DNA from: a virus | Lineage: Duplodnaviria > Caudoviricetes | Length of the DNA stretch: 63,423 bases | Direction: 5' to 3' (one strand) | Virus record (IMG/VR): IMGVR_UViG_3300032665_000026 | Coordinates: 1 to 63,423 of that record | Shown: positions 14,199 through 62,878 of the stretch, piece after piece | How positions within the stretch are numbered: the first letter of the stretch is position 1 | Layout: every line of letters starts with the position of its first letter | Translations under genes and position numbers: made by a program | The notes under the pieces: model-generated | The model's input: only the letters and a program-made list of their open reading frames with translations | Told to the model about the DNA's origin: nothing | The model's database searches: none

Positions 14199-14263
14199 CT
14201 CCGAACGAAGCAAATACCGTAGATGCAGCAAGCTCCTGGGAATGAGATTAAACTTCCCAACAA

Positions 14264-14338
14264 CGGGTAGTAGCGCAGCTTGGTCAGCGCATCTGGTTTG
14301 GGTCCAGAGGGTCGGGGGTTCGAATCCCTCCTACCCGA
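14264..14338 (+). tRNA. tRNA-Pro(UGG)
   Basis: CGGGTAG/CTACCCG, TCTGG-TTTGGGT-CCAGA. Confidence 0.95.
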
Positions 14339-51366: not shown

Positions 51367-51389
51367 AAAAGTTTAGAGATATATTCTGA

Positions 51390-51416
51390 GGGTAGTTTTT
51401 GCACATACCCAGGTGC
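51390..51416 (-). ncRNA. H-type pseudoknot motif, copy 1
   Basis: GCAC-CTGGGTAT-GTGC-AAAAAC-TACCC. Confidence 0.75.
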
Positions 51417-51429
51417 GCCTTCACACGGA

Positions 51430-51624
51430 TTAATCTAATAGTGCATGAACATTGATGCACCAGTACTTATCACCAGCAAGAGCTTCCCACATGGCTAAGT
51501 TCTCGTGTTTCTTCCATTCAGCTCCAGGCACAGCAGCTTGGGCTTTATTTAAACTAGTATATAGTCCAGATATTTCCATGCTATTGTAGCTGGTATCATA
51601 GAGTAATGCATAAACTATTTTCAT
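51430..51624 (-). CDS. Hypothetical protein
   Basis: Last gene of the leftward unit. Confidence 0.55.
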   Translation of the reverse strand: MKIVYALLYDTSYNSMEISGLYTSLNKAQAAVPGAEWKKHENLAMWEALAGDKYWCINVHALLD

Positions 51625-51632
51625 GTTTATAT

Positions 51633-52328
51633 CTATCCTTCTATGACAGTCTGATTTAAGTTGGCGTTCTTGCCACTTAGTATACCAGCATCGTACCCGT
51701 TAATAGAAGTTAACTTATCTGATTGTCTGGATTTCTTTTTACCAACACTTTGAAAATAATCTTCGATAGCATGCTGCTTATCTCGGACTACTAGCTCCAC
51801 TGATGTACCAATAATTTCATTATCCTTAATGACTTTGGCCTTAGATTCTTTGATACGTTCACTAATAGTAACAGCATACCCTGCAAAGAAACTCTTTGTC
51901 CAAGCTTTAACTGGCAAAGTATCATTATAAATAGCCTTAGCTTTTTCTAACTTAATTTTCATCTCGCTAACCATATGGGGACAAAGGATCTCGTAAAGAG
52001 TTAAGCAAAAATCAATATCGCTTTGATAACCATAGATCATGCAGTAACCATCTCCTCGCAATACCTTGCAAAAGTTATGTTTAGCAATGGAATTAAGTAG
52101 CACACTCTTATCAATAAGATATGGTTTATTTACTTCAATCCTTGATGAAGTAATGCCACCAGAACCCACATGGTTATTAAGCTGAGCTTCCTCAATCTGG
52201 TATTGCGTAATGAGCTCCTGAGCAAGTGATTGAGCTGCTGCTACTTCTCCAGGGTGATTACTACTCTCCGCTAAGCGTAAGATTTTTTGTACCCTAGAAA
52301 TAATATCAGTAAGTTTGCTTACCATCAT
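51633..52328 (-). CDS. DUF2786-domain protein
   Basis: RVQKILRLAESSNHPGEVAAAQSLAQELITQY; SFFAGYA; GYDAG. Confidence 0.8.
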   Translation of the reverse strand: MMVSKLTDIISRVQKILRLAESSNHPGEVAAAQSLAQELITQYQIEEAQLNNHVGSGGITSSRIEVNKPYLIDKSVLLNSIAKHNFCKVLRGDGYCMIYGYQSDIDFCLTLYEILCPHMVSEMKIKLEKAKAIYNDTLPVKAWTKSFFAGYAVTISERIKESKAKVIKDNEIIGTSVELVVRDKQHAIEDYFQSVGKKKSRQSDKLTSINGYDAGILSGKNANLNQTVIEG

Positions 52329-52344
52329 TGTTCCTTCCTTGTTA

Positions 52345-52407
52345 TAGTCTAGCCATCATCGGCGGAGAGACGACTAATCCTCTCCGTACACCTCCCGGTG
52401 TTTCGGC
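52345..52407 (-). ncRNA. Type II hammerhead ribozyme, variant core
   Basis: GCC GAAA CACC-GGGA-GGTG TA CGGAGAG-loop-CTCTCCG CCGATGA T GGC; loop TAGTC pairs with 3' GACTA. Confidence 0.75.
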
Positions 52408-52411
52408 AATT

Positions 52412-52657
52412 CTAACTTAACAGCTTATTAATGCTTTTGATGTGGATATTCATGTTACTTATCTGCTCTTCCATAGCTTTCAAAGCACATTCGTACAGAG
52501 CTAAAGCTGCCTCATAGACTGATATGTTAAGGCTTCCCTTGTGATTGTTATAGATCTCAAAACCCTCTAACAATTCAGTGAAGCATTTACTTACTTCGTC
52601 TAATTGATTGACCATAGACTGTACTTGCGAAATTTTGTCTTCGCCAATTACTTGCAT
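52412..52657 (-). CDS. Hypothetical protein
   Basis: In-strand ORF. Confidence 0.55.
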   Translation of the reverse strand: MQVIGEDKISQVQSMVNQLDEVSKCFTELLEGFEIYNNHKGSLNISVYEAALALYECALKAMEEQISNMNIHIKSINKLLS

Positions 52658-52675
52658 TATATGCCTTACTCTTAT

Positions 52676-52969
52676 TTAATATTCTCCATCGTACTCGTAT
52701 GAGTCGATGTATTCATATGAAGCGTCAAATGTTACTTCTTCCTCCTTTCCTGTTTTAGGGCAGATATAATAGAATGTACCTTCTCCATCACCCCAGCTAC
52801 CGCTAGTTACCCAACCACCGCTATATATACTCCCACTGCGATTGTGTGAGTAACAAGTCATAGTGATGCCTTCGATACCAGTATGTGGTTCACCACAAGG
52901 GCATTCTACATCTCTAGTAGCTTCCTCTTCAATCGGTTCTGGTTCATCATCTGGTTCGTAATATCCCAT
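52676..52969 (-). CDS. Hypothetical acidic protein
   Basis: AAGGAG SD. Confidence 0.6.
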   Translation of the reverse strand: MGYYEPDDEPEPIEEEATRDVECPCGEPHTGIEGITMTCYSHNRSGSIYSGGWVTSGSWGDGEGTFYYICPKTGKEEEVTFDASYEYIDSYEYDGEY

Positions 52970-53021
52970 TGTTTCTCCTTTATTTTTATTGTTATATGTG
53001 AAATGCGAGGAGTTAGCTTCC

Positions 53022-53144
53022 TTATAGGAAGTCTACTAGATCTCCATCAAAGCCGTAGCTTTCAAGCTCACGATACATAGAAACAGGGCTAATTTTCCCA
53101 TTGTACATGTCGCTTACTAGTTCTTCTACCTGTTCATCATCCAT
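53022..53144 (-). CDS. 40-aa hypothetical protein (below track cutoff)
   Basis: AAGGA SD; MDDEQVEELVSDMYNGKISPVSMYRELESYGFDGDLVDFL. Confidence 0.55.
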   Translation of the reverse strand: MDDEQVEELVSDMYNGKISPVSMYRELESYGFDGDLVDFL

Positions 53145-53158
53145 GATGTATCCTTTAT

Positions 53159-53220
53159 TTAACCTATCTCATCAGTCCATAGGCGGTCAACCCTATGAAT
53201 ACGCCTCCCGGCGTTTCGAT
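53159..53220 (-). ncRNA. Type II hammerhead ribozyme, canonical core
   Basis: ATC GAAA CGCC-GGGA-GGCG TA TTCATAGG-GTTGACCG-CCTATGGA CTGATGA GAT; loop TTGACC pairs with 3' GGTTAA. Confidence 0.9.
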
Positions 53221-54871
53221 TCATTAATTAATACTCAGCACAGCCACAGTCATAGCCATTGGCAAAATTGCTGCAGCAGTAACTTACTTGCACTACTTGT
53301 CCAGAGGCATTGCGCATATAACCATCTGGTAATGTATCATCATATACATCTGAATCAAATTGGATTGTGTAAGTCATAGCTTACATCTCCTTAACTATTA
53401 GTTCAATTACTCTGTCGAGAGTATCCGATTGACCGCACTTATAGGGATCATCTCCCAACTCAAACGGATAAAACTTCATGATCTTTTCGATCAGCTCATT
53501 TTTATTCATGACACTTCTTTCCAGTTGTTGTTGTTTAATTGATCTAATGTGTCTTGGAACTCGTACAATATATCCCTCTCAGTCTCACCAGTTTCTGTGA
53601 AAGGATCAGCAAATACCCACTCGTTTAAGTTAGGTACAAAAACGTTCTTACCTTTATCAAAACGGGCAAGAGTTGTTTCCCAATCTATGTACCAACCTTT
53701 ACTCTCAGACCACGTTACCACGTAATGATATTCCATTATACTTATTCTCCTACTTCTGTATCTGTCAAGAAACCGTAGACACGTTTAAGATTATGGATAG
53801 CACGTTCTACGCTGCCATCTTTCTCTGAATCATTGATAGCCCATTTAGTTAGGCTAATTGCTGCCTCTAGTGTCTCTGGATCCATTACTCTTCCTCCTTG
53901 TTTCCGGTTACTGTGTAACCTTTCTCTACTACGAACCAATCGTCGTTCCAACCGTCAATCCAGTCGGGGCTTGATTCATCTGGCTCAGGGTGGTTGACGT
54001 ACAACCAACCCCACCCTTCCTCAAAACTATCAAACTCAATACCATCAAACAGGATGTTGTTCATCCAGTCGCGGATAAGGTACTTACTCATTGTTTCCTC
54101 CTAAGTATGTGTGCAACATGAACTACAGTCACCACAGTCACCACAACGACCATCACGACTAGCTAATTCATATTCTCTACCACAGGTGTCACACTCACCC
54201 ATCTCACTACATATGGGGCATAAACCATTGCAATGCTGACAATAGTTTTCATATACAGTAGGTCCATGATCACATGGTTCACATATCATAACTTACTCCT
54301 TACTTGATTGGGAACTCATTGAGGAATGTTTCAAAGACTGATGCCCGAGCTTTGTCCAGCTCATTGTTTAACTCATCGAGATCATCTTGATCTAAATCAG
54401 TGAAATCAATCTCTTCAAACCATTCTTCTAGGTTATCTTTAGTTACTTCATCCATTATACTCCCCAGCATTCATCACATGTACCATCATCACATTCGTCA
54501 CATGGGTGCTTTAATGGAGTATCTAACTCCATACCGCATGTTAAACAAATAGGATATTTCTTACTCACTATGCTTCCTCTCCTGTGTTTACGATAGCCCA
54601 ATCATCCCAATCGATGTTGTCCCACCAGAAGTCAGACTCTAATTGCTTATCTATCAGTTGCTGACCATCCAACCACTGATTTAGTTTCTCGGTTGCTTCT
54701 TCGGGGCTGCTTGCTACAACAGCAACGTCCATAGAAACTTTTGTGTAATACTCTTTCATTGCTTACTCCTCTAACATATTTATTACTTCATTGAGCTGTT
54801 CACATCGATCCAACAATTTAGCAATAACTTTCATTGCTTCTGCTAAGTTAGTTGGAGTCTCGATGCCATAA

Positions 54872-55141
54872 TCAAACAGTAACATCATACTTGCTACCTT
54901 TCTTTGGCATTCCTTTGACTGCCCTACGCTGTAGCTGTGTCATACCACCGAAGATACCAACGACCACGTTGTTATCAATGGCGTACTTTAGGCATTCCTG
55001 TTGCACTATGCAATTGTCACAGTATACCTTAGCTGCATCCATCTTTATTTTTATTTCTCTTGGTAACATTCTACCTTCAAAGAAAAACACATCAGTGTCT
55101 ACACCGATGCAATTGGCATCATCACGCCAGTTCTGATTCAT
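54872..55141 (-). CDS. whiB: Second WhiB-family transcription factor
   Basis: WRDDANC...FF...CDNCIVQQECLKYA...GIFGGMT...RR. Confidence 0.92.
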   Translation of the reverse strand: MNQNWRDDANCIGVDTDVFFFEGRMLPREIKIKMDAAKVYCDNCIVQQECLKYAIDNNVVVGIFGGMTQLQRRAVKGMPKKGSKYDVTV

Positions 55142-55310
55142 TTTATCTCCTCTACCTCATCTACTTCCATTTCATGACCATCGATGAGGAATGCATGGCC
55201 GTTTGCCCACACATCTTCTGCCCATGCTTCAGGAGTATAGCCCTTAGGCATGTCTTCTTCGGTGAATTCATAATAGTATTCAACCGTAGCAATGGCTGTA
55301 TACTTTTTCA

Positions 55311-55700
55311 TCATACCCCCTTAAATAAACTGATGAATTCATCAAACGTCACTGGATCAGTTGCAGTCCACTTGATAGTTTCTTGGTAGTGTTCTATGCT
55401 GATGTCTGAGTAATCAACTTCTTTAATCACAACAGTCCTATCTACATGGTTAACTACAACAATACGCCATACGTCATCATGCTCTGATAGACCAATGCCA
55501 TAGCCAGTTTCACCCATTACTTCACCGAAAATCATCTCTGAGAAGATGATACGGTTGAGATACTCATCATCACCCCAACGACCTTTCCCACGCCCTAGAG
55601 CATTAGCTACAGTCATAGGAAGATAATCAGCACCCCAATGGGTATACAAAAACACTGAACCCTCAGCACTAACCAATTCTACCTGTCCACGGTCTCCCAT
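55311..55700 (-). CDS. Hypothetical phage protein
   Basis: MGDRGQV...FLYTHWG...RWGDDEYLNRII. Confidence 0.65.
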   Translation of the reverse strand: MGDRGQVELVSAEGSVFLYTHWGADYLPMTVANALGRGKGRWGDDEYLNRIIFSEMIFGEVMGETGYGIGLSEHDDVWRIVVVNHVDRTVVIKEVDYSDISIEHYQETIKWTATDPVTFDEFISLFKGV

Positions 55701-55737
55701 GTTATTCTCCTTGCTTGTTTAACCTCATTATGAGGAG

Positions 55738-55788
55738 CACCCTAAGCTAGATTCGAACTAGCATACATCACCACCAATTGGCTAGGGA
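55738..55788 (-). ncRNA. Mini tRNA-like element 1 (acceptor stem plus T arm)
   Basis: TCCCTAG-CCAATTGGTGGTGATGTAT-GCTAG-TTCGAAT-CTAGC-TTAGGGT-G. Confidence 0.7.
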
Positions 55789-55796
55789 TACCTTAA

Positions 55797-56345
55797 CTAC
55801 CAGCTACTTACGTAATAAACGTCGTGACCTTTATTAATTGCTTCTCGTGCTTCCAAGATAAGTTCCAGGTCTTCATTGTAGTAATATGAATCTGAATTCT
55901 CACCAAAGAAAAATCCTGAAGTTGAAGGTAATGTACCAAGGCGTACATGCATTTCTAACTGGTCCAAGTCACCAACATTTAACCTCAACGGTTGGTTGTT
56001 AAAGATTCGAGACTTGTGTAAATTAGCAGCCATCGAAGCATACTGCTCTTGTCGAATGATAGCTTTCATAGCTTCTTCAGATGTTACCATCTCAAGCATC
56101 TCTGGGGTAACTTCTGACTTATCGACTACACCAACCATGTGAGCAACAACTTCAGTAAGAAACCTTTTATCTCCTTCAAAGCCTTGCGCGTTTGCTTTGC
56201 TATTGAATAGATCTTCCATCCATCCTTCAAGGTTGGGGTGCTTACGACGATAAGCTAACTCAAATGTATCAGCATCTTCTGAGTACATAAAGTCAGTGTT
56301 ATCTTCATGACGTTCAACCATGAATACGTACTGGTCTAAACCCAT
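55797..56345 (-). CDS. Hypothetical phage protein
   Basis: MGLDQY...RKHPNLEGWM...GFFFG...VYYVSSW. Confidence 0.7.
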   Translation of the reverse strand: MGLDQYVFMVERHEDNTDFMYSEDADTFELAYRRKHPNLEGWMEDLFNSKANAQGFEGDKRFLTEVVAHMVGVVDKSEVTPEMLEMVTSEEAMKAIIRQEQYASMAANLHKSRIFNNQPLRLNVGDLDQLEMHVRLGTLPSTSGFFFGENSDSYYYNEDLELILEAREAINKGHDVYYVSSW

Positions 56346-56386
56346 AATCTTACTCCTTGTTTAACTTACTATTCCCTACTTGGGAG

Positions 56387-56434
56387 CGTCCTAAGATGGG
56401 ATCGAACCATCATACATCATCACCAGATTAGGAC
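56387..56434 (-). ncRNA. Mini tRNA-like element 2 (acceptor stem plus T arm)
   Basis: GTCCTAA-TCTGGTGATGATGTAT-GATGG-TTCGATC-CCATC-TTAGGAC-G. Confidence 0.75.
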
Positions 56435-56441
56435 CACCTTA

Positions 56442-56849
56442 CTACTCTACATCAGGGAACAACGACCTAAGGTAACTACCATCTAAGATAGAAGACGTTG
56501 CTGCTTTTGCTGCTTCAATGATTTCTGCAGCTTTTTCTAGGCTATCAATCGCTAGAGTGTTGCCTTCATCATCAATGCCACCAGTGATAATGATATCACC
56601 GACAATCATATCAGTCATGCCATACTCGTGAATCCATAGAGCAGTCCCGAATACGTTCATGCGTGGGTTCTCAACGAGCTTTCCTTCGTCATCGATCCAC
56701 AGATCAATACCGAGTGAATCGATACTTACGCATTGGATCAAGCCACCACCAGTGGCTGCTTTCAGTTGCTTGTATGAATTTGCCTCATCAAAGTCAACGA
56801 TTGCAATCTCATTGGTAGCTGCATCAGAAGTGATTGCATACTTTCCCAT
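56442..56849 (-). CDS. DUF3846-like protein
   Basis: GGLIQCV...LWIDDEGKL...N...IVGDIIITG. Confidence 0.75.
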   Translation of the reverse strand: MGKYAITSDAATNEIAIVDFDEANSYKQLKAATGGGLIQCVSIDSLGIDLWIDDEGKLVENPRMNVFGTALWIHEYGMTDMIVGDIIITGGIDDEGNTLAIDSLEKAAEIIEAAKAATSSILDGSYLRSLFPDVE

Positions 56850-56881
56850 TATATTCCCCTTACTTGTTTGGTTTATTTGAG

Positions 56882-56910
56882 TGGGCAGTTTAATGACATA
56901 CCCAGGTCAT
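56882..56910 (-). ncRNA. H-type pseudoknot motif, copy 2
   Basis: ATGAC-CTGGGTAT-GTCAT-TAAAC-TGCCCA. Confidence 0.8.
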
Positions 56911-56920
56911 ACTAACTTAA

Positions 56921-57634
56921 CTACTTAGGGAAAACAATTTCAATTTGCTTACCATTAATAGTAATGAACTGCGGTGCAGCAGGTACATCTGGTTCTACTG
57001 GTGCTACTGATACAGGTTCTAACACTGGATTAATTGCTTCAATAACGTCTCCGATACTATCAAACATCATACTAAAGCCTGGAATATCTGCTTTGTCTCC
57101 ACCGAAATCCCATGCGCTTGTGTCAATGGTGAATGAGGTATCAATCATTGGTTCGGGTTCTACTTCTGCTACAACAGTAGTTGGTGCATCTTCAGTAACA
57201 CTGGAGGTAGTTTCAACCGTTGTAGGAATAGTAGAATATACCATACCTAGATCTGACTTCTCTTTCCAAACACCATCGATTGAGATGCAAGGATTCAAGA
57301 CAATGCCAGTCTTACCAACCTCGTACGATAGACCAAGCATACGGTAGAGAAAGTACTTACGCGCAATATCTCGATTAGTCTCAGTCTGTGCCATTTGTAG
57401 CATCGTAGCGATATTTGCCTTAGCATCTTGGTGAGTTGCATAGAACATACGCCCAATGATAGTACGTGCTCGTCCAGTTTCTTCATCGTTCTTAGAACAA
57501 CGAATATCTACTCGGGAGAAACTTGTTGGTGTCTCCTTAGTAACAGTGAACGCTAGGTCAACTATGTCGCGAGTACGACTAGAATTCCAGCACTTACCAT
57601 CTGGTTTTGGTACCCAGATAAGTTCGTTAGTCAT
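56921..57634 (-). CDS. Hypothetical protein
   Basis: 237 aa in-strand ORF. Confidence 0.6.
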   Translation of the reverse strand: MTNELIWVPKPDGKCWNSSRTRDIVDLAFTVTKETPTSFSRVDIRCSKNDEETGRARTIIGRMFYATHQDAKANIATMLQMAQTETNRDIARKYFLYRMLGLSYEVGKTGIVLNPCISIDGVWKEKSDLGMVYSTIPTTVETTSSVTEDAPTTVVAEVEPEPMIDTSFTIDTSAWDFGGDKADIPGFSMMFDSIGDVIEAINPVLEPVSVAPVEPDVPAAPQFITINGKQIEIVFPK

Positions 57635-57662
57635 CTTACTAGTTCCTTCCTTACTTGTTTAT

Positions 57663-57722
57663 TTGACCTCTTCATTCAGCCGGTGGTGGTCAATCCACCG
57701 AGAGTCCTCCCGGACTTTCTGT
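57663..57722 (-). ncRNA. Type II hammerhead-like ribozyme, divergent core
   Basis: GAAA GTCC-GGGA-GGAC TC TCGGTGG-ATTGACCA-CCACCGG CTGAATGA; TTGACC/GGTCAA pseudoknot; stem II weak. Confidence 0.65.
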
Positions 57723-57732
57723 TCTTATTACT

Positions 57733-57915
57733 TTAATCTTTAACTCTTGGTGTGCAAAGGCCATCCATAATGAGTCCTTCTGCCATGCGACCGTAATGAC
57801 CTTGAAGACTCCAAGCCATTCCAGTGTCAATCAAGTACTGAAACAGTTCAATTGTTTCCTCTCCATTCAAACTGCCCTGTTCGTAGTCAATAATATTAGA
57901 TAGTGTATCGTACAT
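57733..57915 (-). CDS. Small hypothetical phage protein
   Basis: IIDYEQG...LFQYLIDTGMAWSLQGHYGR. Confidence 0.7.
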   Translation of the reverse strand: MYDTLSNIIDYEQGSLNGEETIELFQYLIDTGMAWSLQGHYGRMAEGLIMDGLCTPRVKD

Positions 57916-57939
57916 AATTCTCCTTTTTATTTTATTGTT

Positions 57940-58362
57940 TTACAACGGGTAACCAGAAATACTGCGGATATAACTACTAGGGCCAACAGGCTCTGGTGCT
58001 TTAGCGCTTTCATAACAGCTTAATTGCTCAATGAACCAAGCTTCTGCTTCAACTGATCTTTTACCATACAGCAATCTTGCACTGAATAATAGAGCATCAA
58101 CAAAGTTTTTAGCAAGATAAGAGCTTTGAAACTCTCGTACAAATAATACTTTATTTGCTACTTTCTTACCATCATCCCGCTTACGAACGATAAGCCTTGC
58201 ATTCTTATTAACAATGCCGTATTGAGAACCAGCTTCTAACGTAAAAGATAGATCTACATTATGATTGTATAGCCACCATTTTCTTTCAGGATGTGTTTTG
58301 GCAGTCCAAACAACATCATCATCATTCTTCCTTAGACGCCAATGCAATTCACGACTAATCAT
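57940..58362 (-). CDS. Hypothetical protein
   Basis: In-strand ORF with ATGA overlap. Confidence 0.55.
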   Translation of the reverse strand: MISRELHWRLRKNDDDVVWTAKTHPERKWWLYNHNVDLSFTLEAGSQYGIVNKNARLIVRKRDDGKKVANKVLFVREFQSSYLAKNFVDALLFSARLLYGKRSVEAEAWFIEQLSCYESAKAPEPVGPSSYIRSISGYPL

Positions 58363-58580
58363 GATTCTCCTTGCTTAACAAACTTATTAACAAGTTTGCC
58401 CATGTCTTCTGAGCTTGGAACCTCTTCCGAACTAACATCGAATACAGCTGCCTTTTGACTCTTGGCAAACTCTTCGACCATTAGCTTGAAATAAGCACCG
58501 AATGATTCCATTTGATCAGGATCATCGAACTCAACTTCGATAGTAAGGTTAGGACCTACTTGAGTACCTTTAATCTGCAT
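58359..58580 (-). CDS. Hypothetical protein
   Basis: AAACAAGGAG leader. Confidence 0.6.
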   Translation of the reverse strand: MQIKGTQVGPNLTIEVEFDDPDQMESFGAYFKLMVEEFAKSQKAAVFDVSSEEVPSSEDMGKLVNKFVKQGES

Positions 58581-58608
58581 AGCTATTCTCCTTGTTTAGT
58601 TATTTATG

Positions 58609-58636
58609 TGGGCACTTTATCGTCATACCCAGGACG
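58609..58636 (-). ncRNA. H-type pseudoknot motif, copy 3
   Basis: CGTC-CTGGGTAT-GACG-ATAAAG-TGCCCA. Confidence 0.8.
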
Positions 58637-58747
58637 CCATACACTCGTGTAACACACAGGTAGTAGGCTAACCTACATGAGCTGCTCCTCATGCTGAGTC
58701 TGTGTTGCATCACATCGCGTCGCGGTCCATGCGATACACAAGAAAGG

Positions 58748-58774
58748 GGGCAGTTTTTCTGTCATACCCAGGAC
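58748..58774 (-). ncRNA. H-type pseudoknot motif, copy 4
   Basis: GTC-CTGGGTAT-GAC-AGAAAAAC-TGCCC. Confidence 0.75.
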
Positions 58775-59667
58775 GCAACGATTACTCTACCTTCCAACCG
58801 ATAAGCTGGCTTCTTACGCTCCGCCGCGTGTGTTCTTTCCGGCATCCACTACTTCCGATATGAGCTTCCCCTCATACTGAGTGTGTTATCAAACTAATCG
58901 TGTCTCTGTCCCTGTCATCAACTTCATGAGCTTGTCCTAACAACCATAGCTTAATTACAACAGGGCCTATGTACACAACGAAGCATACATAGGCTTGAGC
59001 TTTATTCCAGACGCTGTGCTCAAAGCGCCCCTAGTTCCTTTGTATCATACCAACTAGGAAGTATTATTGAGCTAACGGATCAAACCGGCTACATTGAGGC
59101 AGTAGCTTCCCTTCTATTAAGTAGGCTTCTGATTACCTCCATACGCTTCCCCGTATGGTGAGGATGGCAGTTGCAGATGCCAGCTGGGACGGTTTATACT
59201 CACCGTGAGTAGCACCCATACCAACCATGACAGCTGGTATGGGTTCATCCGTTAAGAGTGGATGGGTTGGCTAGGTTTAAGGAGAGCCTACGTTCCTGTG
59301 CAAACTTCCCCCTGCACTGAGAGGTTTGTTTGGTAGTACCCGTCTACCAGCTTTCAGTTCTTTAACTGAATAAGCCATGAAAGCAACCGCCTCTCCTACT
59401 CACGGCATAGCCCAGGCCAGGGTTTTAATGACAACCCTCCACATCATGATGCTTTTAACGTGATCCAAACACGTCTATTGAGCTAACCCCACACACACAC
59501 GTTGTTTGTGAAATGCGTGGAGTTAGCTCCTTAGAGCTGATAGCTTCCTCAAGAAACCCAGAGGAGCTATGGAGATGCCACAACAAGAAGGAAAAGCACT
59601 CTCCATAACCCCTCTCAATTGCTTGAGCGAAGTATATGTCGAGCTTATCATCCTTGCCGACGTTATG

Positions 59668-59988
59668 CTATGATCCCAGAAGAACCTTAGCTTTTGCTAG
59701 GGCAGTTTCGAATCCAGCAATACTATCGAGAGCATAGACGCCACTGAGCTTGAGAGCGATCTCAATTTCCTCAACGACATCGACAAGTCCTTTAGCTACC
59801 GTTTGGTAGATGATGACTTTGTTCTCGAGAGCAGCGATCTGTTCTTTGGACAGATCAACCAGTTTGTCGACATTGATGAGAAGATCGACAAGTATCAGGG
59901 AATATTCCCTTAGCTTATCGATGTCCTCAGCAACGTTGATCTTGGATTGAATCTCTTCAACCCGTGCCTGGATACCAGTAGTGTTCAT
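59668..59988 (-). CDS. Hypothetical coiled-coil protein (start 59988)
   Basis: AAGGAG SD before MNTTGIQARVEE. Confidence 0.6.
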   Translation of the reverse strand: MNTTGIQARVEEIQSKINVAEDIDKLREYSLILVDLLINVDKLVDLSKEQIAALENKVIIYQTVAKGLVDVVEEIEIALKLSGVYALDSIAGFETALAKAKVLLGS

Positions 59989-60490: not shown

Positions 60491-61984
60491 CTAAAGCAAA
60501 CCAAGCAAAGCGTCACGGATAGGACCAGCAGGCTTATTGATAAGCTTGCCAGCCTTGAACCCCTTGACTGCTTCTTCAACACTCGGAATCATAATGATCC
60601 GGTGCTTCTTGACCAGTTGAGCACACTGCTTAGTTAATTCATTGTTGCGTCCATCAGTCTTGCTGGTGACGATACCATCACATACCCAGATAAGATCCTC
60701 ACCGGGATGACGTTGATTGATAGCCCACGTAAGAGCAGGACCATCAACACCGTTACCCATCCCACCTACAGATGGGATCTCAGCTACACGCCAACCACGC
60801 CTAGCAAAGATCCAAGCATTGGGCTGATCATCACCACAGTGACTGTACGCCATGATGACAGCAGCTGGTGCTGCCTCAACGATGGACTCGATGTCAGATT
60901 GAGTCAGGCTCATAGAACCTGAGATATCAATCAACACCACGCCACCACGTACCCTCTTCTTGTGAGTGAAGATTCGTCGCTCAGGGTCAGTGTAAAGTCG
61001 GCTGATGTTGCCGATGCTACGACCGAACTGAGCAGGCTTACGCTTGCGCTTCATGTACCCTTCTACCTCAACAGATAGCACGAGAGAATCATCGATGTTA
61101 AGCTTGGCAAACATGCCACGCTCATCGGTGGGGAACTCGTAATCATCAGGTAGCTCATCTTTGAGTGGAGTTCTAAAGGGAGATAACTTACCCTCTTCAC
61201 TCGGCTCAGTGGATTCACCATACTCTGAAGCACGCTTATCCTCTTCCTCGTCACGCTCACGCTGGATAGTTTCAGGAGCTTTCATGCCTGTTGAAGCATA
61301 CTGTGAGATCTCAGCAGCAACACGGATTGTGTTGTTGAAGCCACGAGGGCCAGTAACACCACCACCAAAATCGTATGGGGAAGTGTCACCGAGATCCATG
61401 GGATCACCCAACAGAACCTTATCGAGCCTCTTGCTGAGCTTACGCAACCGCTCAGACCATTCAGGGTTCACAGACCTAACGCCACTCGCGAACGAGTCAA
61501 ACGATTTGGTACCGTGATGCTCCACAGTGAACTTGAGTGCCTCATCCCAGTGCCTAGACGACTTGCCTGTAGCAAGCATCACTCCACGCTTCTTCTCATT
61601 GCCAAGTATCTCGTTAGAATCAACGCCCTTGAGCTCTAAGAATGGCTTGGCGACAGCATTGACTCGGGCTTGTTCTGCAACACGAAGCATAGCATCAGTA
61701 ATACCATGCGACTTGTAAGTAATACCACCCTGCTTGTAAATGTTGTCATCCATTGGAGAGATACGAGCTTCAATTAGCTTGCGCACCTTCAACTGCTGTG
61801 ACTGACTGTCCCCCGTGAGAGGGACAGCCAATACACTCGCAGCGAAGTCTACACCAGCGCCGTACTCACCCACTGTTGTAACAACTTCCCAGTTGTTACC
61901 AGTAGGCGCATCATCACGGTATGAAACGATCGCACCAACTAGTGGCTTGACCCCTTCTTCCTCGATAGCGTAGTCTTCACTCAT
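60491..61984 (-). CDS. VWA-domain protein (CobT/MoxR partner)
   Basis: VLIDISGSMS MIDAS motif, GNGVDGPAL, WVCDG. Confidence 0.85.
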   Translation of the reverse strand: MSEDYAIEEEGVKPLVGAIVSYRDDAPTGNNWEVVTTVGEYGAGVDFAASVLAVPLTGDSQSQQLKVRKLIEARISPMDDNIYKQGGITYKSHGITDAMLRVAEQARVNAVAKPFLELKGVDSNEILGNEKKRGVMLATGKSSRHWDEALKFTVEHHGTKSFDSFASGVRSVNPEWSERLRKLSKRLDKVLLGDPMDLGDTSPYDFGGGVTGPRGFNNTIRVAAEISQYASTGMKAPETIQRERDEEEDKRASEYGESTEPSEEGKLSPFRTPLKDELPDDYEFPTDERGMFAKLNIDDSLVLSVEVEGYMKRKRKPAQFGRSIGNISRLYTDPERRIFTHKKRVRGGVVLIDISGSMSLTQSDIESIVEAAPAAVIMAYSHCGDDQPNAWIFARRGWRVAEIPSVGGMGNGVDGPALTWAINQRHPGEDLIWVCDGIVTSKTDGRNNELTKQCAQLVKKHRIIMIPSVEEAVKGFKAGKLINKPAGPIRDALLGLL

Positions 61985-62730
61985 TACAGTGAAGCCGTCG
62001 TGCTCAAGGTACCGAGACGAATGACATCGATGATAGAGTCAGCAAGCTTACCGAAGACAAGCTTTGCAGCACGCTCCGTGGAGAACGCTGGGTTCTGACG
62101 CAGAAGCTGGAACTCCTTCCAAGCACGCAATGAAGCACGCTCGCCGTTCTGACCAGCAACAATAGCTGCAGCAAGCATGCGCAACTCTGGTGGCAATGCA
62201 GCGACCAACGCAGCCGGGTGGGCAGCGTCAATCTTGATTGCAACCGGGAAGCGGTCACGCAATGGAGCAGCGATCATGTTGGGATCCGTGAAGTTCGTGG
62301 TCATGATAGCCGAGAAGTTCTCATTAGGACGAATAGTCTCGCCCGTGTAAGGATTCTTCCAGACCGATGACTCCGCACTGTCAAGGAACGCCATCAGCGT
62401 CGACTCAACGTCACCGGAAGCACGGTTGATCTCGTCAATAACTGCACGAGCACCGGACTTCCAAGCACGAGCCAATGCACCCTCGACGAAGCCGAAACCA
62501 CCGCTAGGCGTAGGCAGCATTGCACCTACGATGTCGCCTGTGGTCATGTCCTCGGAGCAGATGAGTCGCTCAGACCCAGCGTCACCGACGCCGAGAGTGA
62601 GAGCCGAGTAGGTCTTGCCGGTCCCAGGAGGGCCGTACAGGATGACCTTCTTGACACCTGCAGCGATTACGTCCTCCAAGTCGATGAAGCACTGGGGAAC
62701 GGGAATGCCTTCGTATGAAGTTTCGCTCAT
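61984..62730 (-). CDS. MoxR/CbbQ-like AAA+ ATPase
   Basis: GPPGTGKT, IDEINRA, MTTN, PLRDRF. Confidence 0.9.
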   Translation of the reverse strand: MSETSYEGIPVPQCFIDLEDVIAAGVKKVILYGPPGTGKTYSALTLGVGDAGSERLICSEDMTTGDIVGAMLPTPSGGFGFVEGALARAWKSGARAVIDEINRASGDVESTLMAFLDSAESSVWKNPYTGETIRPNENFSAIMTTNFTDPNMIAAPLRDRFPVAIKIDAAHPAALVAALPPELRMLAAAIVAGQNGERASLRAWKEFQLLRQNPAFSTERAAKLVFGKLADSIIDVIRLGTLSTTASL

Positions 62731-62808
62731 AATAGTTTTCCTTCTTGTTTGTTTGTTGTTTTACGGTGCTTGTTATCACCGGACACATACCGGTTATGGT
62801 ATGTATCG

Positions 62809-62878
62809 CACTGCAGATGGGAATCGAACCCACAATCTTCTAGCTGAACTAGACGCTCTACCATTGAGCCACTGCAGT
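62809..62878 (-). tRNA. Atypical tRNA with shortened anticodon arm centred on UCA
   Basis: ACTGCAG TG GCTC-AATGGTA-GAGC G TCTAG-TTCAG-CTAGA AGATT GTGGG-TTCGATT-CCCAT CTGCAGT G. Confidence 0.75.

What the first reader, a model, noticed from the sequence alone, without database searches (positions are those of the whole stretch)
58600..59660. ~1.05 kb ORF-free, ornate structured RNA in a gene-dense phage
Seen on the - strand: GAGGGGTTATGGAGA/TCTCCATAGCTCCTC; GAGCTAACTCCACGCAT/GTGTGTGGGGTTAGCTC; ACCCATACCAGC/GTTGGTATGGGT; GCCTATGTA/TACATAGGC; CCTAGTT/AACTAGG. Long-range helices GCCGTGAGTAG/CTACTCACGGT (enclosing ~180 nt) and GGAGAG/CTCTCC are present. A further pseudoknot has stem GGCGCT/AGCGTC and loop TTGAGC pairing with GCTCAA. 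G-U wobbles fit the - strand. Established: phages carry large ornate ncRNAs such as GOLLD and ROOL. I cannot match this one to them by eye, so it may be a new class (inference).
Basis: partly seen in the sequence, partly recalled or inferred. Interest (0 to 1): 0.85.

Follow-up and report, generated by a model that had tools for sequence, protein, structure and literature searches.

The report
Phage tandem array of pseudoknotted RNAs
The gene-free kilobase in this lake phage is a real, conserved, heavily folded non-coding RNA region made of four repeated hairpin-and-pseudoknot units, and one of its building blocks is a small pseudoknot found in many other phages and listed in no catalogue.

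Summary
The 1,087-nt gap (58581-59667, minus strand) is real, ORF-free and shows no codon periodicity. It matches none of the 4,227 Rfam 15 families. A syntenic gap of 0.44-1.57 kb occurs in 25 of 31 distinct related uncultured phage loci.

It is not one fixed ornate fold. It has a 5' leader (two long hairpins, a pseudoknot, three hairpins) followed by four tandem paralogous units of about 160-280 nt. Each unit starts with CUCA, a 7-bp hairpin with a GGGAAG loop, and AGG. Each unit ends in an H-type pseudoknot that I call PK-B. Relatives carry 1-6 units in shuffled order.

Covariation is strong, and G-U pairs place the fold on the gene-sense strand, so it is RNA. The two long-range helices are not conserved.

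PK-B is widespread: at least 119 exact-pattern stretches in IMG/VR. It typically starts 2-11 nt after a stop codon. It ends 3-7 nt before a tRNA in 11 of 95 contexts, and 5 nt before tRNA-Phe in cultured Gordonia phage OneUp.

No RNA-seq run held the stretch, so function is inferred. My best guess is an array of stable small RNAs, each closed by a 3' pseudoknot and displaying GGGAAG loops to one common partner.

The parts
59548..59627 (-). HP1: long hairpin just after the upstream stop codon, with a conserved pyrimidine-rich loop of about 17 nt
   Evidence: Inverted repeat I1; coordinates. It is 88-94% identical in L009-L014, whose vWA protein is only about 55% identical. A stem change compensated on both sides is visible in L014 (listing).
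59474..59535 (-). HP2: long hairpin. It is the first element of the gap in L003, L004, L007, L008 and L015.
   Evidence: Inverted repeat I2. A 36-nt look-alike of one arm lies at 52991-53027.
59419..59447 (-). PK-A: H-type pseudoknot (5-bp stem, 10-nt purine-rich loop, A-rich linker, 4-nt strand pairing back to the loop)
   Evidence: Read from the listings, with coordinates. The second stem pair changes U-A to C-G in L004 and L008. Not quantified.
59373..59412 (-). HP3: hairpin with a purine-rich loop.
59331..59370 (-). HP4 and HP5: two short hairpins that end the leader
   Evidence: also present in L003, L004, L059 and L065 (listing).
59165..59325 (-). Unit 1: CUCA plus GGGAAG-loop hairpin (R1 match 59291-59325), P2 hairpin, CUUAA-loop hairpin, 12-bp hairpin (59214-59244), divergent PK-B-like pseudoknot (59165-59186)
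   Evidence: R1 33.0 bits, E 1e-4. Consensus fold of 20 units of this type gives 28 pairs, 20 with changes on both sides..
58886..59166 (-).
   Evidence: R1 48.0 bits, E 3.4e-8. An 86% identical 254-nt block occurs in L003..
58703..58885 (-). Unit 3: GGGAAG hairpin (R1 match 58851-58885), middle hairpins, canonical PK-B (58748-58774), pyrimidine-rich tail and spacer hairpin (58701-58740)
   Evidence: R1 47.3 bits; R2 46.8 bits, E 1.1e-10.
58599..58702 (-). Unit 4: hairpin with variant loop GAGCAG (R1 match 58668-58702), short middle part, canonical PK-B (58609-58636) about 20 nt before the RBS of the 73-aa gene
   Evidence: R1 44.1 bits; R2 46.3 bits, E 1.5e-10.
56872..56912 (-). PK-B copy outside the gap, between the stop of the 237-aa gene and the RBS of the DUF3846 gene
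   Evidence: R2 54.2 bits, E 1.2e-12; context; Pfam.
51379..51419 (-). PK-B copy at the very end of the minus-strand gene block, in the convergent junction with the plus-strand block
   Evidence: R2 35.7 bits, E 1e-7; ORF map.
14229..14269 (+). PK-B copy (its loop and tail covary relative to the consensus) inside the tRNA cluster. The pseudoknot ends 4 nt before tRNA-Pro.
   Evidence: R2 34.7 bits, E 1.8e-7.

Best explanation
The gap encodes, on the gene-sense (minus) strand, a modular non-coding RNA. It has a 5' leader (HP1, HP2, PK-A, HP3-5) followed by four tandem paralogous units of about 160-280 nt.

Each unit opens with CUCA, a 7-bp hairpin whose stem is free to vary and whose loop is held as GGGAAG, and AGG. 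A small second hairpin or pseudoknot and variable covarying hairpins follow. Each unit closes with an H-type pseudoknot of the PK-B class: a 3-6 bp stem, the loop C-UGGGUA-U, an A-rich linker ending AAAC, and UGCCCA pairing back to the loop.

Shown: the structures, their covariation, their strand, the unit architecture, unit gain and loss among relatives, and the wide occurrence and fixed placement of PK-B.

Inferred:
(1) The array is transcribed with its flanking genes, because it lies on the same strand and no terminator-like site was found on that strand.
(2) PK-B is a compact 3'-end module that closes off or protects the RNA upstream of it. Where a tRNA follows within 2-7 nt, RNase P cutting would leave the pseudoknot at a 3' end with a tail too short for exonucleases. 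This is comparable to the MALAT1 triple helix with mascRNA (recalled knowledge).
(3) The array is therefore cut into, or behaves as, several stable small RNAs. Their invariant GGGAAG loops all address one partner (a protein, or a pyrimidine-rich RNA), making a multivalent decoy, sponge or scaffold made early in infection.
For: Structure and strand:
- The R1 model finds 68 matches (61 at E<=0.001) in 359,370 bases searched on both strands. All are on the sense strand and all inside the syntenic gap, with 4 in the window.
- The stem is 100% paired, 7 of 7 pairs change on both sides, and the basal pair is G-U or U-G in 31 of 54 distinct copies.
- Test free of selection for pairing: an IMG/VR-wide pattern with no pairing requirement gave 45 matches. 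The 21 in this phage family all have 7 of 7 pairs. The other 24 have at most 4 of 7.

Units:
- Spacing between hairpin starts is 141-309 nt, apart from one 1,446-nt interval in L084. Relatives carry 1-6 units, and unit order differs.
- The gap is 441-1,573 nt long.
- 28 consensus pairs in one unit type, 20 with changes on both sides.

PK-B:
- The inner stem is 100% paired and the pseudoknot helix 94% paired, with covariation, in 33 copies.
- In 99 distinct copies from 95 other phage loci, the inner stem is 99.3% and the pseudoknot helix 99.7% paired. Changes such as G-C to A-U or C-G occur in hits that depart from the consensus.
- The distance between the two conserved halves varies from 4 to 14 nt and the stem from 3 to 7 bp. 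This argues against a two-box promoter.

Placement of PK-B:
- It starts 2-11 nt after a same-strand stop codon in 52 of 95 contexts. A same-strand upstream ORF is found in 87 of 95, against 70 of 95 downstream.
- It ends 3-7 nt before a tRNA in 11 of 95 contexts, 4 nt before one in the window, 2 nt in G002, and 5 nt in Gordonia phage OneUp.
- One copy sits at the end of an operon at 51379-51419.
- Upstream genes include Hsp20 (10 of 42), protease (5 of 42) and head protein (2 of 42).
- Each of the four window units ends in a PK-B or a PK-B-like knot.
Against: There is no transcript evidence at all. No listed sequencing run holding the stretch is RNA. Transcription, processing, RNA ends and stability are therefore all inferred.

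PK-B also sits 7-29 nt before ribosome-binding sites in 22 of 95 contexts, with the downstream ATG 17-41 nt after it in 40 of 95. It also sits just before extended -10-like promoter elements in 26 of 95. It could equally be a 5' or intercistronic element. The tight spacing on both sides may only reflect compact phage genomes.

Two of the four unit-ending knots in the window are divergent and are not found by the R2 model at E<=0.01.

No partner for the GGGAAG loop was identified. The 10 neighbouring proteins scanned have no RNA-related Pfam family, 9 of them were also scanned against PHROGs with no RNA-related match, and the vWA protein model shows only a vWA fold.

Alignments A2-A4 were picked by scripts that required pairing. 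Their percent-paired values are therefore partly built in. Searches are the less biased tests.
Confidence: 0.45

Rival explanations
1. One large ornate RNA particle. The whole ~1 kb folds and acts as a single molecule, possibly oligomerising like GOLLD or ROOL. The repeated units would be internally duplicated domains. The purine-rich GGGAAG loops would dock on the pyrimidine-rich loop of HP1 and on the pyrimidine-rich tails after internal PK-B copies.
For: The region is long, ORF-free and conserved in a phage from lake water. Purine-rich loops (4 GGGAAG-type loops and the HP3 loop) coexist with recurrent pyrimidine-rich single strands (the HP1 loop and the tail after PK-B at 58748-58774) that could pair with G-U wobbles (read; not tested). 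The HP1 loop is nearly invariant across distant relatives.
Against: No conserved global architecture exists. Unit number is 1-6, order differs and length is 441-1,573 nt. The proposed long-range helices are not conserved. HP1 is absent from several relatives that keep the units (L003, L004, L007, L008, L015). No Rfam match, so nothing from GOLLD or ROOL, which I recall are Rfam families.
Confidence: 0.2
2. A purely cis-acting untranslated region. The structures would only tune stability, processing or translation of the flanking polycistronic mRNA (the 106-aa gene upstream, the 73-aa gene downstream) and have no function in trans.
For: The region lies on the same strand as both neighbours, with no terminator-like site on that strand. 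The last PK-B lies about 20 nt before the RBS of the downstream gene in the window and in relatives. PK-B occurs in ordinary short intergenic spacers elsewhere.
Against: A kilobase with more than 20 conserved, covarying helices is far more than the roughly 30-nt PK-B that serves other genes of the same phage. The aligned parts are more conserved at the DNA level than the neighbouring protein gene: 92 mismatches in 633 aligned positions against 360 in 1,451 for L003. The GGGAAG hairpins occur nowhere else in 359 kb of these phages.
Confidence: 0.15
3. A DNA-level element: a replication origin, a packaging site, or a recombination cassette like the T4-type promoter/stem-loop (PeSL) motifs. The repeats would act as DNA.
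For: The region carries repeated motifs and is hypervariable in copy number. PK-B is often followed by extended -10-like promoter elements (26 of 95), which resembles terminator-promoter cassettes (PMC4122927, passages read).
Against: Stems covary while loops are conserved. G-U pairs make the fold strand-specific. PK-B follows the direction of the local genes on both strands of the window: plus at 14229, minus at 51379-58778. PeSL stem-loops as described are simple hairpins with other sequences.
Confidence: 0.05
4. A template array for a reverse transcriptase, like the UG27-associated phage ncRNA arrays of ~150-nt pseudoknotted units that template cDNA.
For: The overall picture is the same: phage-encoded tandem structured units with a pseudoknot, diverse in sequence, with gain and loss of single units (preprint 10.64898/2026.09.22.753630, section 9 read).
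Against: No RVT_1 match in the window or in two related records of 132 kb that are 89% and 83% complete. The unit described there is a main hairpin with an asymmetric internal loop, which differs from these units. That covariance model was not available to test.
Confidence: 0.03

Closest known systems
GOLLD and ROOL large ornate RNAs of phages and bacteria
   Same: Long, ORF-free, multi-helix, conserved RNA regions carried by phages, often near tRNA genes, with function unknown. GOLLD was first seen in lake metagenomes (abstract of PMC12286853 seen in the listing; the rest is recalled).
   Different: No match to any Rfam 15 family at gathering scores, and only weak miRNA-precursor matches at E<=10. 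No fixed global architecture. The region is built of 1-6 exchangeable units. No supported long-range helices.
UG27 reverse-transcriptase-associated ncRNA arrays in phages (preprint 10.64898/2026.09.22.753630)
   Same: Tandem arrays of structured units of about 135-167 nt with a pseudoknot. Units are sequence-diverse but share a fold. Closely related loci differ by one or two units (section 9 read).
   Different: No reverse transcriptase was found in 3 records. Units here are 160-280 nt and have another architecture: a 5' GGGAAG hairpin and a 3' PK-B. Their hosts are mostly gut Bacteroidota and Bacillota, whereas this is a lake phage.
Small H-type pseudoknot RNAs with an A-rich third loop (preQ1-I and SAM-II riboswitches, frameshift pseudoknots, T-even gene 32 leader)
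   Same: PK-B has the same topology: stem 1, a one-nucleotide loop, stem 2, and an A-rich linker that could lie in the groove of stem 1. It sits a few nucleotides after a stop codon, much as frameshift or readthrough knots sit after their recoding site (recalled).
   Different: No Rfam riboswitch model matches. No expression platform is present. No extended reading frame follows it. It also precedes tRNAs and sits inside a non-coding array.
MALAT1 / MEN-beta 3' triple helix followed by a tRNA-like RNase P site (recalled knowledge)
   Same: A compact A-rich knotted structure immediately 5' of a tRNA-shaped RNase P substrate. This would leave the structure at the new 3' end. PK-B ends 2-7 nt before tRNAs in 14 cases.
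   Different: That is a eukaryotic nuclear RNA with a different fold (a U-A·U triple helix, not an H-type knot). Processing and protection by PK-B are untested.
PeSL promoter/stem-loop cassettes of T4-type phages (PMC4122927, PMC2839356)
   Same: Short conserved intergenic cassettes after genes and before promoters, associated with gene shuffling in phages (passages read). 26 of 95 PK-B contexts have an extended -10-like element within 45 nt.
   Different: PeSL stem-loops are simple hairpins with lineage-specific sequences. PK-B is a pseudoknot with one conserved core across many phage lineages.
Type III toxin-antitoxin RNA repeats (ToxI and phage pseudo-ToxI; recalled, review PMC5086642 seen only in the listing)
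   Same: Tandem repeats of pseudoknot-forming RNA that can expand in phages and act as protein-binding decoys.
   Different: Those repeats are short (about 34-36 nt), near-identical, and lie next to an endoribonuclease toxin gene. Here the units are 160-280 nt and diverged, and no toxin family was hit among the 10 neighbours.

Membership tests
GOLLD / ROOL / OLE / other Rfam large RNAs, group I/II introns, RNase P, tmRNA | Match to the family's covariance model | tested here: not met
   cmscan of the whole window at gathering scores gave 7 tRNAs only. cmscan of 58300-59900 at E<=10 gave only five weak miRNA-model matches to HP1, far below their gathering scores. That these families are in Rfam 15 is recalled, not shown by a call.
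tRNA / tmRNA | Cloverleaf or tRNA-like domain with tag found by ARAGORN | tested here: not met
   ARAGORN finds 7 tRNAs in the window, none in 58581-59667, and none in the gaps of 13 relatives.
UG27-type RT-associated ncRNA array | Adjacent UG27 reverse transcriptase with two accessory proteins | tested here: not met
   PF00078 gave no match in G000, G001 or G002. The control genomes were hit in 3 of 14.
UG27-type RT-associated ncRNA array | Unit fold: main hairpin interrupted by an asymmetric internal loop, basal hairpin, pseudoknot | not testable with these tools
   The authors' covariance model and figures are not held. From the text the fold differs from the units seen here.
Type III toxin-antitoxin antitoxin RNA | Near-identical short tandem repeats next to a ToxN/AbiEii-type endoribonuclease gene | tested here: not met
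   Units are 141-309 nt and diverged. Pfam scan of 10 flanking proteins found only AAA-family domains and DUF3846. PADLOC was not run.
Riboswitch (preQ1-I, SAM-II, fluoride and other pseudoknot classes) | Match to the aptamer model, and an expression platform (RBS or terminator overlapping the knot) | tested here: not met
   No Rfam match on the window region, on 10 phage loci or on 8 bacterial loci holding PK-B. The RBS lies 7-29 nt away at variable distance, and copies precede tRNAs.
Ro60 / Y-RNA module | TROVE-domain Ro60 protein next to the RNA genes | tested here: not met
   The 497-aa neighbour has no Pfam family. A profile search against PDB sequences finds no Ro60. The AlphaFold model (pLDDT 82) matches only vWA domains, weakly, with best E 7e-3.
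Protein-coding region with small ORFs | Conserved open frame and 3-periodic substitution | tested here: not met
   The longest sense ORF is 43 aa. No periodicity in the gap, against clear periodicity in the neighbouring CDS.

The most novel reading that the evidence does not exclude
PK-B is a new, widespread class of self-contained RNA device of about 30 nt. It would be either an exonuclease-proof 3'-end cap (a bacterial or phage counterpart of the MALAT1 triple helix with RNase P arrangement) or a very small self-cleaving or processing signal. Phages place it right after stop codons and right before tRNAs. The 1-kb locus would then be a new kind of phage weapon: a tandem array of stable decoy RNAs built on this cap, each presenting the same GGGAAG loop to titrate a host or phage factor.
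Probability: 0.3. Interest if true: 0.85.

Novelty: new variant of a known kind. Interest (0 to 1): 0.72.

Why it matters
Phage genomes are tightly packed, so a conserved kilobase without a gene is costly and must pay for itself.

The locus adds a well-supported new structured RNA, with dozens of covarying pairs and 25 related loci, to the short list of large phage non-coding RNAs. None of those has a known function.

It also shows a different construction principle: exchangeable units rather than one fixed fold.

The by-product may matter more. PK-B is a roughly 30-nt pseudoknot with an almost invariant core. It occurs in well over a hundred phage contigs and about two dozen genome-bin contigs. 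It sits at a fixed distance after stop codons and before tRNAs, and it matched no Rfam family in any stretch scanned.

Because one copy lies in cultured Gordonia phage OneUp, 5 nt before tRNA-Phe, its role in RNA end formation, stability or processing can be tested directly.

Tried and rejected
- DNA and protein searches of the cultured-phage collection with the gap, the 497-aa neighbour and a 1,063-aa protein found nothing near.
- Single-protein locus searches found nothing. A profile of 35 homologues was needed.
- Sequencing runs: 24 runs hold the stretch, all lake or freshwater DNA. No RNA holder is listed.
- Ro60/Y-RNA idea: rejected.
- Reverse-transcriptase template idea: no RT found.
- Sigma-54 or two-box promoter reading of PK-B: rejected because the spacing between the two conserved halves varies (4-14 nt linker, 3-7 bp stem) and the stems covary.
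- Pistol ribozyme, preQ1-I and fluoride riboswitch resemblances were recalled. No Rfam match at E<=10.
- PeSL cassettes: the sequences and structures described differ.
- Literature: four searches found no description of the motif (and 74 for PeSL). Supplements are closed, so motif lists in supplements of RNA-discovery papers could not be checked.
- Single-linkage clustering of units merged 58 of 68 units into one cluster and gave no usable subtypes.
- My first regular expression for PK-B had the loop boundary wrong and returned chance hits. It was corrected.
- Of the 32 exact PK-B pattern matches in cellular genomes, 8 have a stem of 2 bp or less. These include Pseudoalteromonas, Catenovulum and Mycolicibacterium, the only records among the 31 not labelled MAG or SAG. 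I do not count those 8 as PK-B.
- Earlier scan notes: nothing for this genome or sequence.
- A quantified test of PK-A and of the P2 pseudoknots was not completed.
Full report
**What is there.** The window is an uncultured virus record of 63,423 bases, estimated 43% complete. Twenty-four sequencing runs hold the stretch, all labelled lake-water or freshwater metagenome DNA.

Genes from about 51.4 kb to the end of the window lie on the minus strand. The flagged gap runs from the stop of a 106-aa gene (59668) to the ATG of a 73-aa gene (58580) that has a good RBS. It is 1,087 nt long.

The longest sense-strand ORF inside is 43 aa. Substitutions against three relatives show no codon periodicity: 37/30/25, 20/25/26 and 26/36/29 by position mod 3. 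The neighbouring 497-aa gene gives 208/88/64, 199/82/60 and 131/62/43.

Aligned parts of the gap are better conserved at the DNA level than that gene. Against L003 there are 92 mismatches in 633 positions in the gap, compared with 360 in 1,451 in the gene.

**Known families.** cmscan of the whole window at gathering scores finds only seven tRNAs, none in the gap. A permissive scan of 58300-59900 at E<=10 gives only five weak miRNA-precursor matches to the first hairpin, far below their cut-offs. ARAGORN finds nothing in the gap. The cultured-phage collection holds nothing similar by blastn or tblastn.

**Relatives.** The 497-aa neighbour has 99 homologues in metagenomes. It has a C-terminal vWA fold and sits beside an AAA_5 ATPase. 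A 35-sequence profile brought in 19 IMG/VR loci and 30 JGI metagenome loci, which reduce to 31 distinct loci.

Downstream of the gene, in the same position, every locus with enough sequence and at least 40% protein identity has a gap without long ORFs. In the 12 distinct IMG/VR loci measured it is 441 to 1,573 nt long. blastn shows that the window's gap is conserved in pieces that occur in different orders and copy numbers.

**The repeated hairpin.** Four times in the window, and 1-6 times in relatives, the sense strand carries the same element. It consists of CUCA, a 7-bp stem of free sequence, the loop GGGAAG (53 of 60 script-found copies), and AGG.

On 58 copies (54 distinct), all cells pair and all 7 pairs change on both sides. 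The basal pair is G-U or U-G in 31 of 54, which would be A-C on the other strand. Those copies were chosen by a script that required pairing, so two less biased tests matter more.

- First test: an IMG/VR-wide scan with a pattern that fixes only CUCA, the loop with its closing pair, and AGG gave 45 matches. The 21 in contigs of this phage family all have 7 of 7 stem pairs. The other 24 have at most 4 of 7.
- Second test: a covariance model (R1) run over the window and 31 loci (359,370 bases, both strands) gives 68 matches, 61 of them at E<=0.001. Every match is on the gene-sense strand and inside the syntenic gap.

In all, 25 of 31 loci have at least one match. The six without are two distant loci (34-35% protein identity) and four truncated contigs.

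**Units.** Distances between successive hairpins are 141-309 nt, apart from one 1,446-nt interval in L084. A consensus fold of 20 units of one type gives 28 pairs, 20 with changes on both sides. These cover the GGGAAG hairpin, a 4-bp second hairpin that switches between two sequence types, a helix of a further knot, and a 12-bp hairpin.

By eye on the listings, the loop of the second hairpin pairs with the bases just after a UAAA linker. The same plan recurs in PK-A at 59419-59447. I could not quantify these two elements.

**PK-B.** Each unit of the window ends in an H-type pseudoknot with these parts:
- a stem of 3-6 bp;
- the loop C-UGGGUA-U;
- the return strand of the stem;
- an A-rich linker that usually ends AAAC;
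- UGCCCA, which pairs with the loop.

In 33 copies the three inner stem pairs are 100% paired. Two of them are split almost evenly between two pair types, and the third is C-G in 32 of 33. The six knot pairs are 94% paired. One position is U-G 22, C-G 6, U-A 4 and A-U 1, and others show G-C to A-U exchanges.

Its stem and its loop-tail pairing both change in step with copies in L016, L060, L004 and L073. The knot at 59165-59186 is another divergent member. The R2 model finds only the two canonical copies in the gap.

**PK-B outside the locus.** R2 finds just 5 copies in the window, 5 in a 132-kb relative and 3 in another. Outside the gap the window copies are as follows:
- One lies before the DUF3846 gene (56872-56912).
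- One lies at the very end of the minus-strand block (51379-51419).
- One lies on the plus strand in the tRNA cluster. There the knot ends 4 nt before tRNA-Pro, and its loop and tail have changed together.

In the second relative it ends 2 nt before tRNA-Ser.

In 115 of 118 fetched matches the flanking bases form a stem of 3 bp or more, although the pattern did not ask for it.

Among 95 distinct contexts:
- A same-strand ORF stops 2-11 nt before the stem in 52.
- A tRNA starts 3-7 nt after the knot in 11.
- An extended -10-like element lies within 45 nt in 26.
- An RBS follows in 22.

The preceding stop codons are TAA 35, TAG 14 and TGA 4. The preceding genes include Hsp20 (10 of 42), a protease family (5 of 42) and head proteins (2 of 42).

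R2 on these 95 loci gives 112 matches. The 17 that depart from the exact pattern show compensated changes in the knot helix. No Rfam family covers PK-B in 10 phage loci or 8 bacterial loci.

The variable distance between the two halves, together with the covariation, rules out a two-box promoter. The orientation follows the local genes on both strands, which ties PK-B to transcripts.

A cultured example exists. In Gordonia phage OneUp the knot (R2 23.9 bits) ends 5 nt before tRNA-Phe.

The complementary segments are in the sequence. However, the 5' partner is present without the 3' partner in L059 and L065, and the reverse holds in L073. In L003 and L004 the two lie about 490 and 930 nt apart, with several units between them. 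In relatives the 5' partner is a local hairpin with a purine-rich loop. I found no helix that closes the whole region.

**What it most likely is.** Shown: a sense-strand RNA structure made of a leader and four exchangeable units, each bounded by a conserved 5' hairpin and a 3' pseudoknot of a widespread class.

Inferred: PK-B is a 3'-end module. The reasons are as follows:
- It hugs the stop codon of the gene before it.
- It nearly always has a same-strand gene upstream (87 of 95), against 70 of 95 downstream.
- It sits at an operon end.
- Where a tRNA follows, RNase P would leave it with a 2-7-nt tail.

On this reading the array yields several stable small RNAs that all show the same GGGAAG loop to one partner.

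This is a guess about function, at about 45% confidence. No RNA data exist, and PK-B could equally be a 5' or intercistronic element. The rivals are scored in their own section: one large particle, a purely cis-acting untranslated region, a DNA element, and a reverse-transcriptase template.

**Comparison with what is known.** The nearest concept in print is the UG27 reverse-transcriptase-associated array of ~150-nt pseudoknotted units in phages (preprint 10.64898/2026.09.22.753630; section 9 and passages read). No reverse transcriptase is found in the window or in two related 132-kb records (89% and 83% complete), and the unit fold described there differs.

GOLLD and ROOL share the 'large ornate phage RNA' character but not the architecture. 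The vWA neighbour is not a Ro60. It has no TROVE by Pfam, by profile search of PDB sequences or by fold search of a pLDDT-82 model.

Four literature searches found no description of either motif. Supplements could not be read.

**Verdict.** The interpretation 'new structured RNA class' holds, but as a modular tandem array rather than one ornate fold. Its terminal pseudoknot is a widespread phage motif that matched no Rfam family in any stretch scanned and deserves study in its own right.

Noticed in passing
window 62808-62878 (-); L003:5117-5189, L004:5119-5190, L007:5087-5158, L008:3478-3549, L015:136-208: A tRNA just upstream of the AAA ATPase gene is called tRNA-SeC with anticodon UCA (a UGA reader) in the window. 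The tRNA in a corresponding position upstream of the vWA gene in relatives is called with other, partly odd anticodons: att, cat, a 2-base 'ta', and ata. A tRNA whose anticodon varies between relatives may point to stop-codon suppression or recoding.
   Followed up: no
L211, L215, L222, L224, L227, L228, L233, L237, L238 (bacterial MAG/SAG contigs): In nine contigs from Omnitrophota, Planctomycetales, Deltaproteobacteria, Spirochaetes and Aminicenantes bins, a tiny ORF of about 22-26 codons with a good RBS encodes a peptide with an HCxEGC-like motif. It runs into PK-B and ends ...SWV at a UGA inside the knot. In 4 of the 9 a TAG comes just before. In at least 4 of the loci a gene follows whose product starts like an Rrf2-family regulator (my reading of the N-terminus, not a database hit). 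It looks like a leader peptide coupled to the pseudoknot.
   Followed up: partly
L240:1499-1527 (Gordonia phage OneUp, NC_030917.1 5238-5266): A PK-B copy in a cultured actinophage lies in an unannotated spacer of its tRNA cluster. It ends 5 nt before tRNA-Phe. A weaker second match lies at L240:1110-1151. This gives a tractable system for experiments.
   Followed up: partly
window 52991-53027 (-): A 36-nt look-alike (86% identity) of one arm of HP2 lies about 6.5 kb away, among small early-type ORFs.
   Followed up: no
window 59571-59595 (HP1 loop) and 58735-58747 (after PK-B of unit 3); L003, L004, L007, L008, L015: A pyrimidine-rich motif (CCUUUCUUGUGU-like) recurs in the HP1 loop and right after internal PK-B copies. 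It could pair with the GGGAAG loops through G-U wobbles, and it resembles the pyrimidine-rich 3' tail of 16S rRNA (recalled). Neither idea was tested.
   Followed up: no
window 60491-62730 (-): An AAA_5 ATPase (248 aa; also hits PHROG families labelled 'ATPase' and 'porphyrin biosynthesis') and a 497-aa protein with a C-terminal vWA fold and a helical N-terminal domain of no known family form a conserved pair just upstream of the RNA array. It is a CobS/CobT- or MoxR-like pair.
   Followed up: partly
L091-L208 (IMG/VR loci with PK-B): In 26 of 95 contexts a TGnTAnnnT extended -10-like element starts 0-19 nt after PK-B. PK-B therefore often sits where a terminator-promoter junction would be expected. 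Ten of 42 genes that end just before PK-B are Hsp20 homologues.
   Followed up: partly
L004:9590-9650 (gap, 3' end): The gap of L004/L006 ends with a stretch that contains a T-arm-like sequence (a GGUUCGAAC-type loop), although ARAGORN calls no tRNA there.
   Followed up: no
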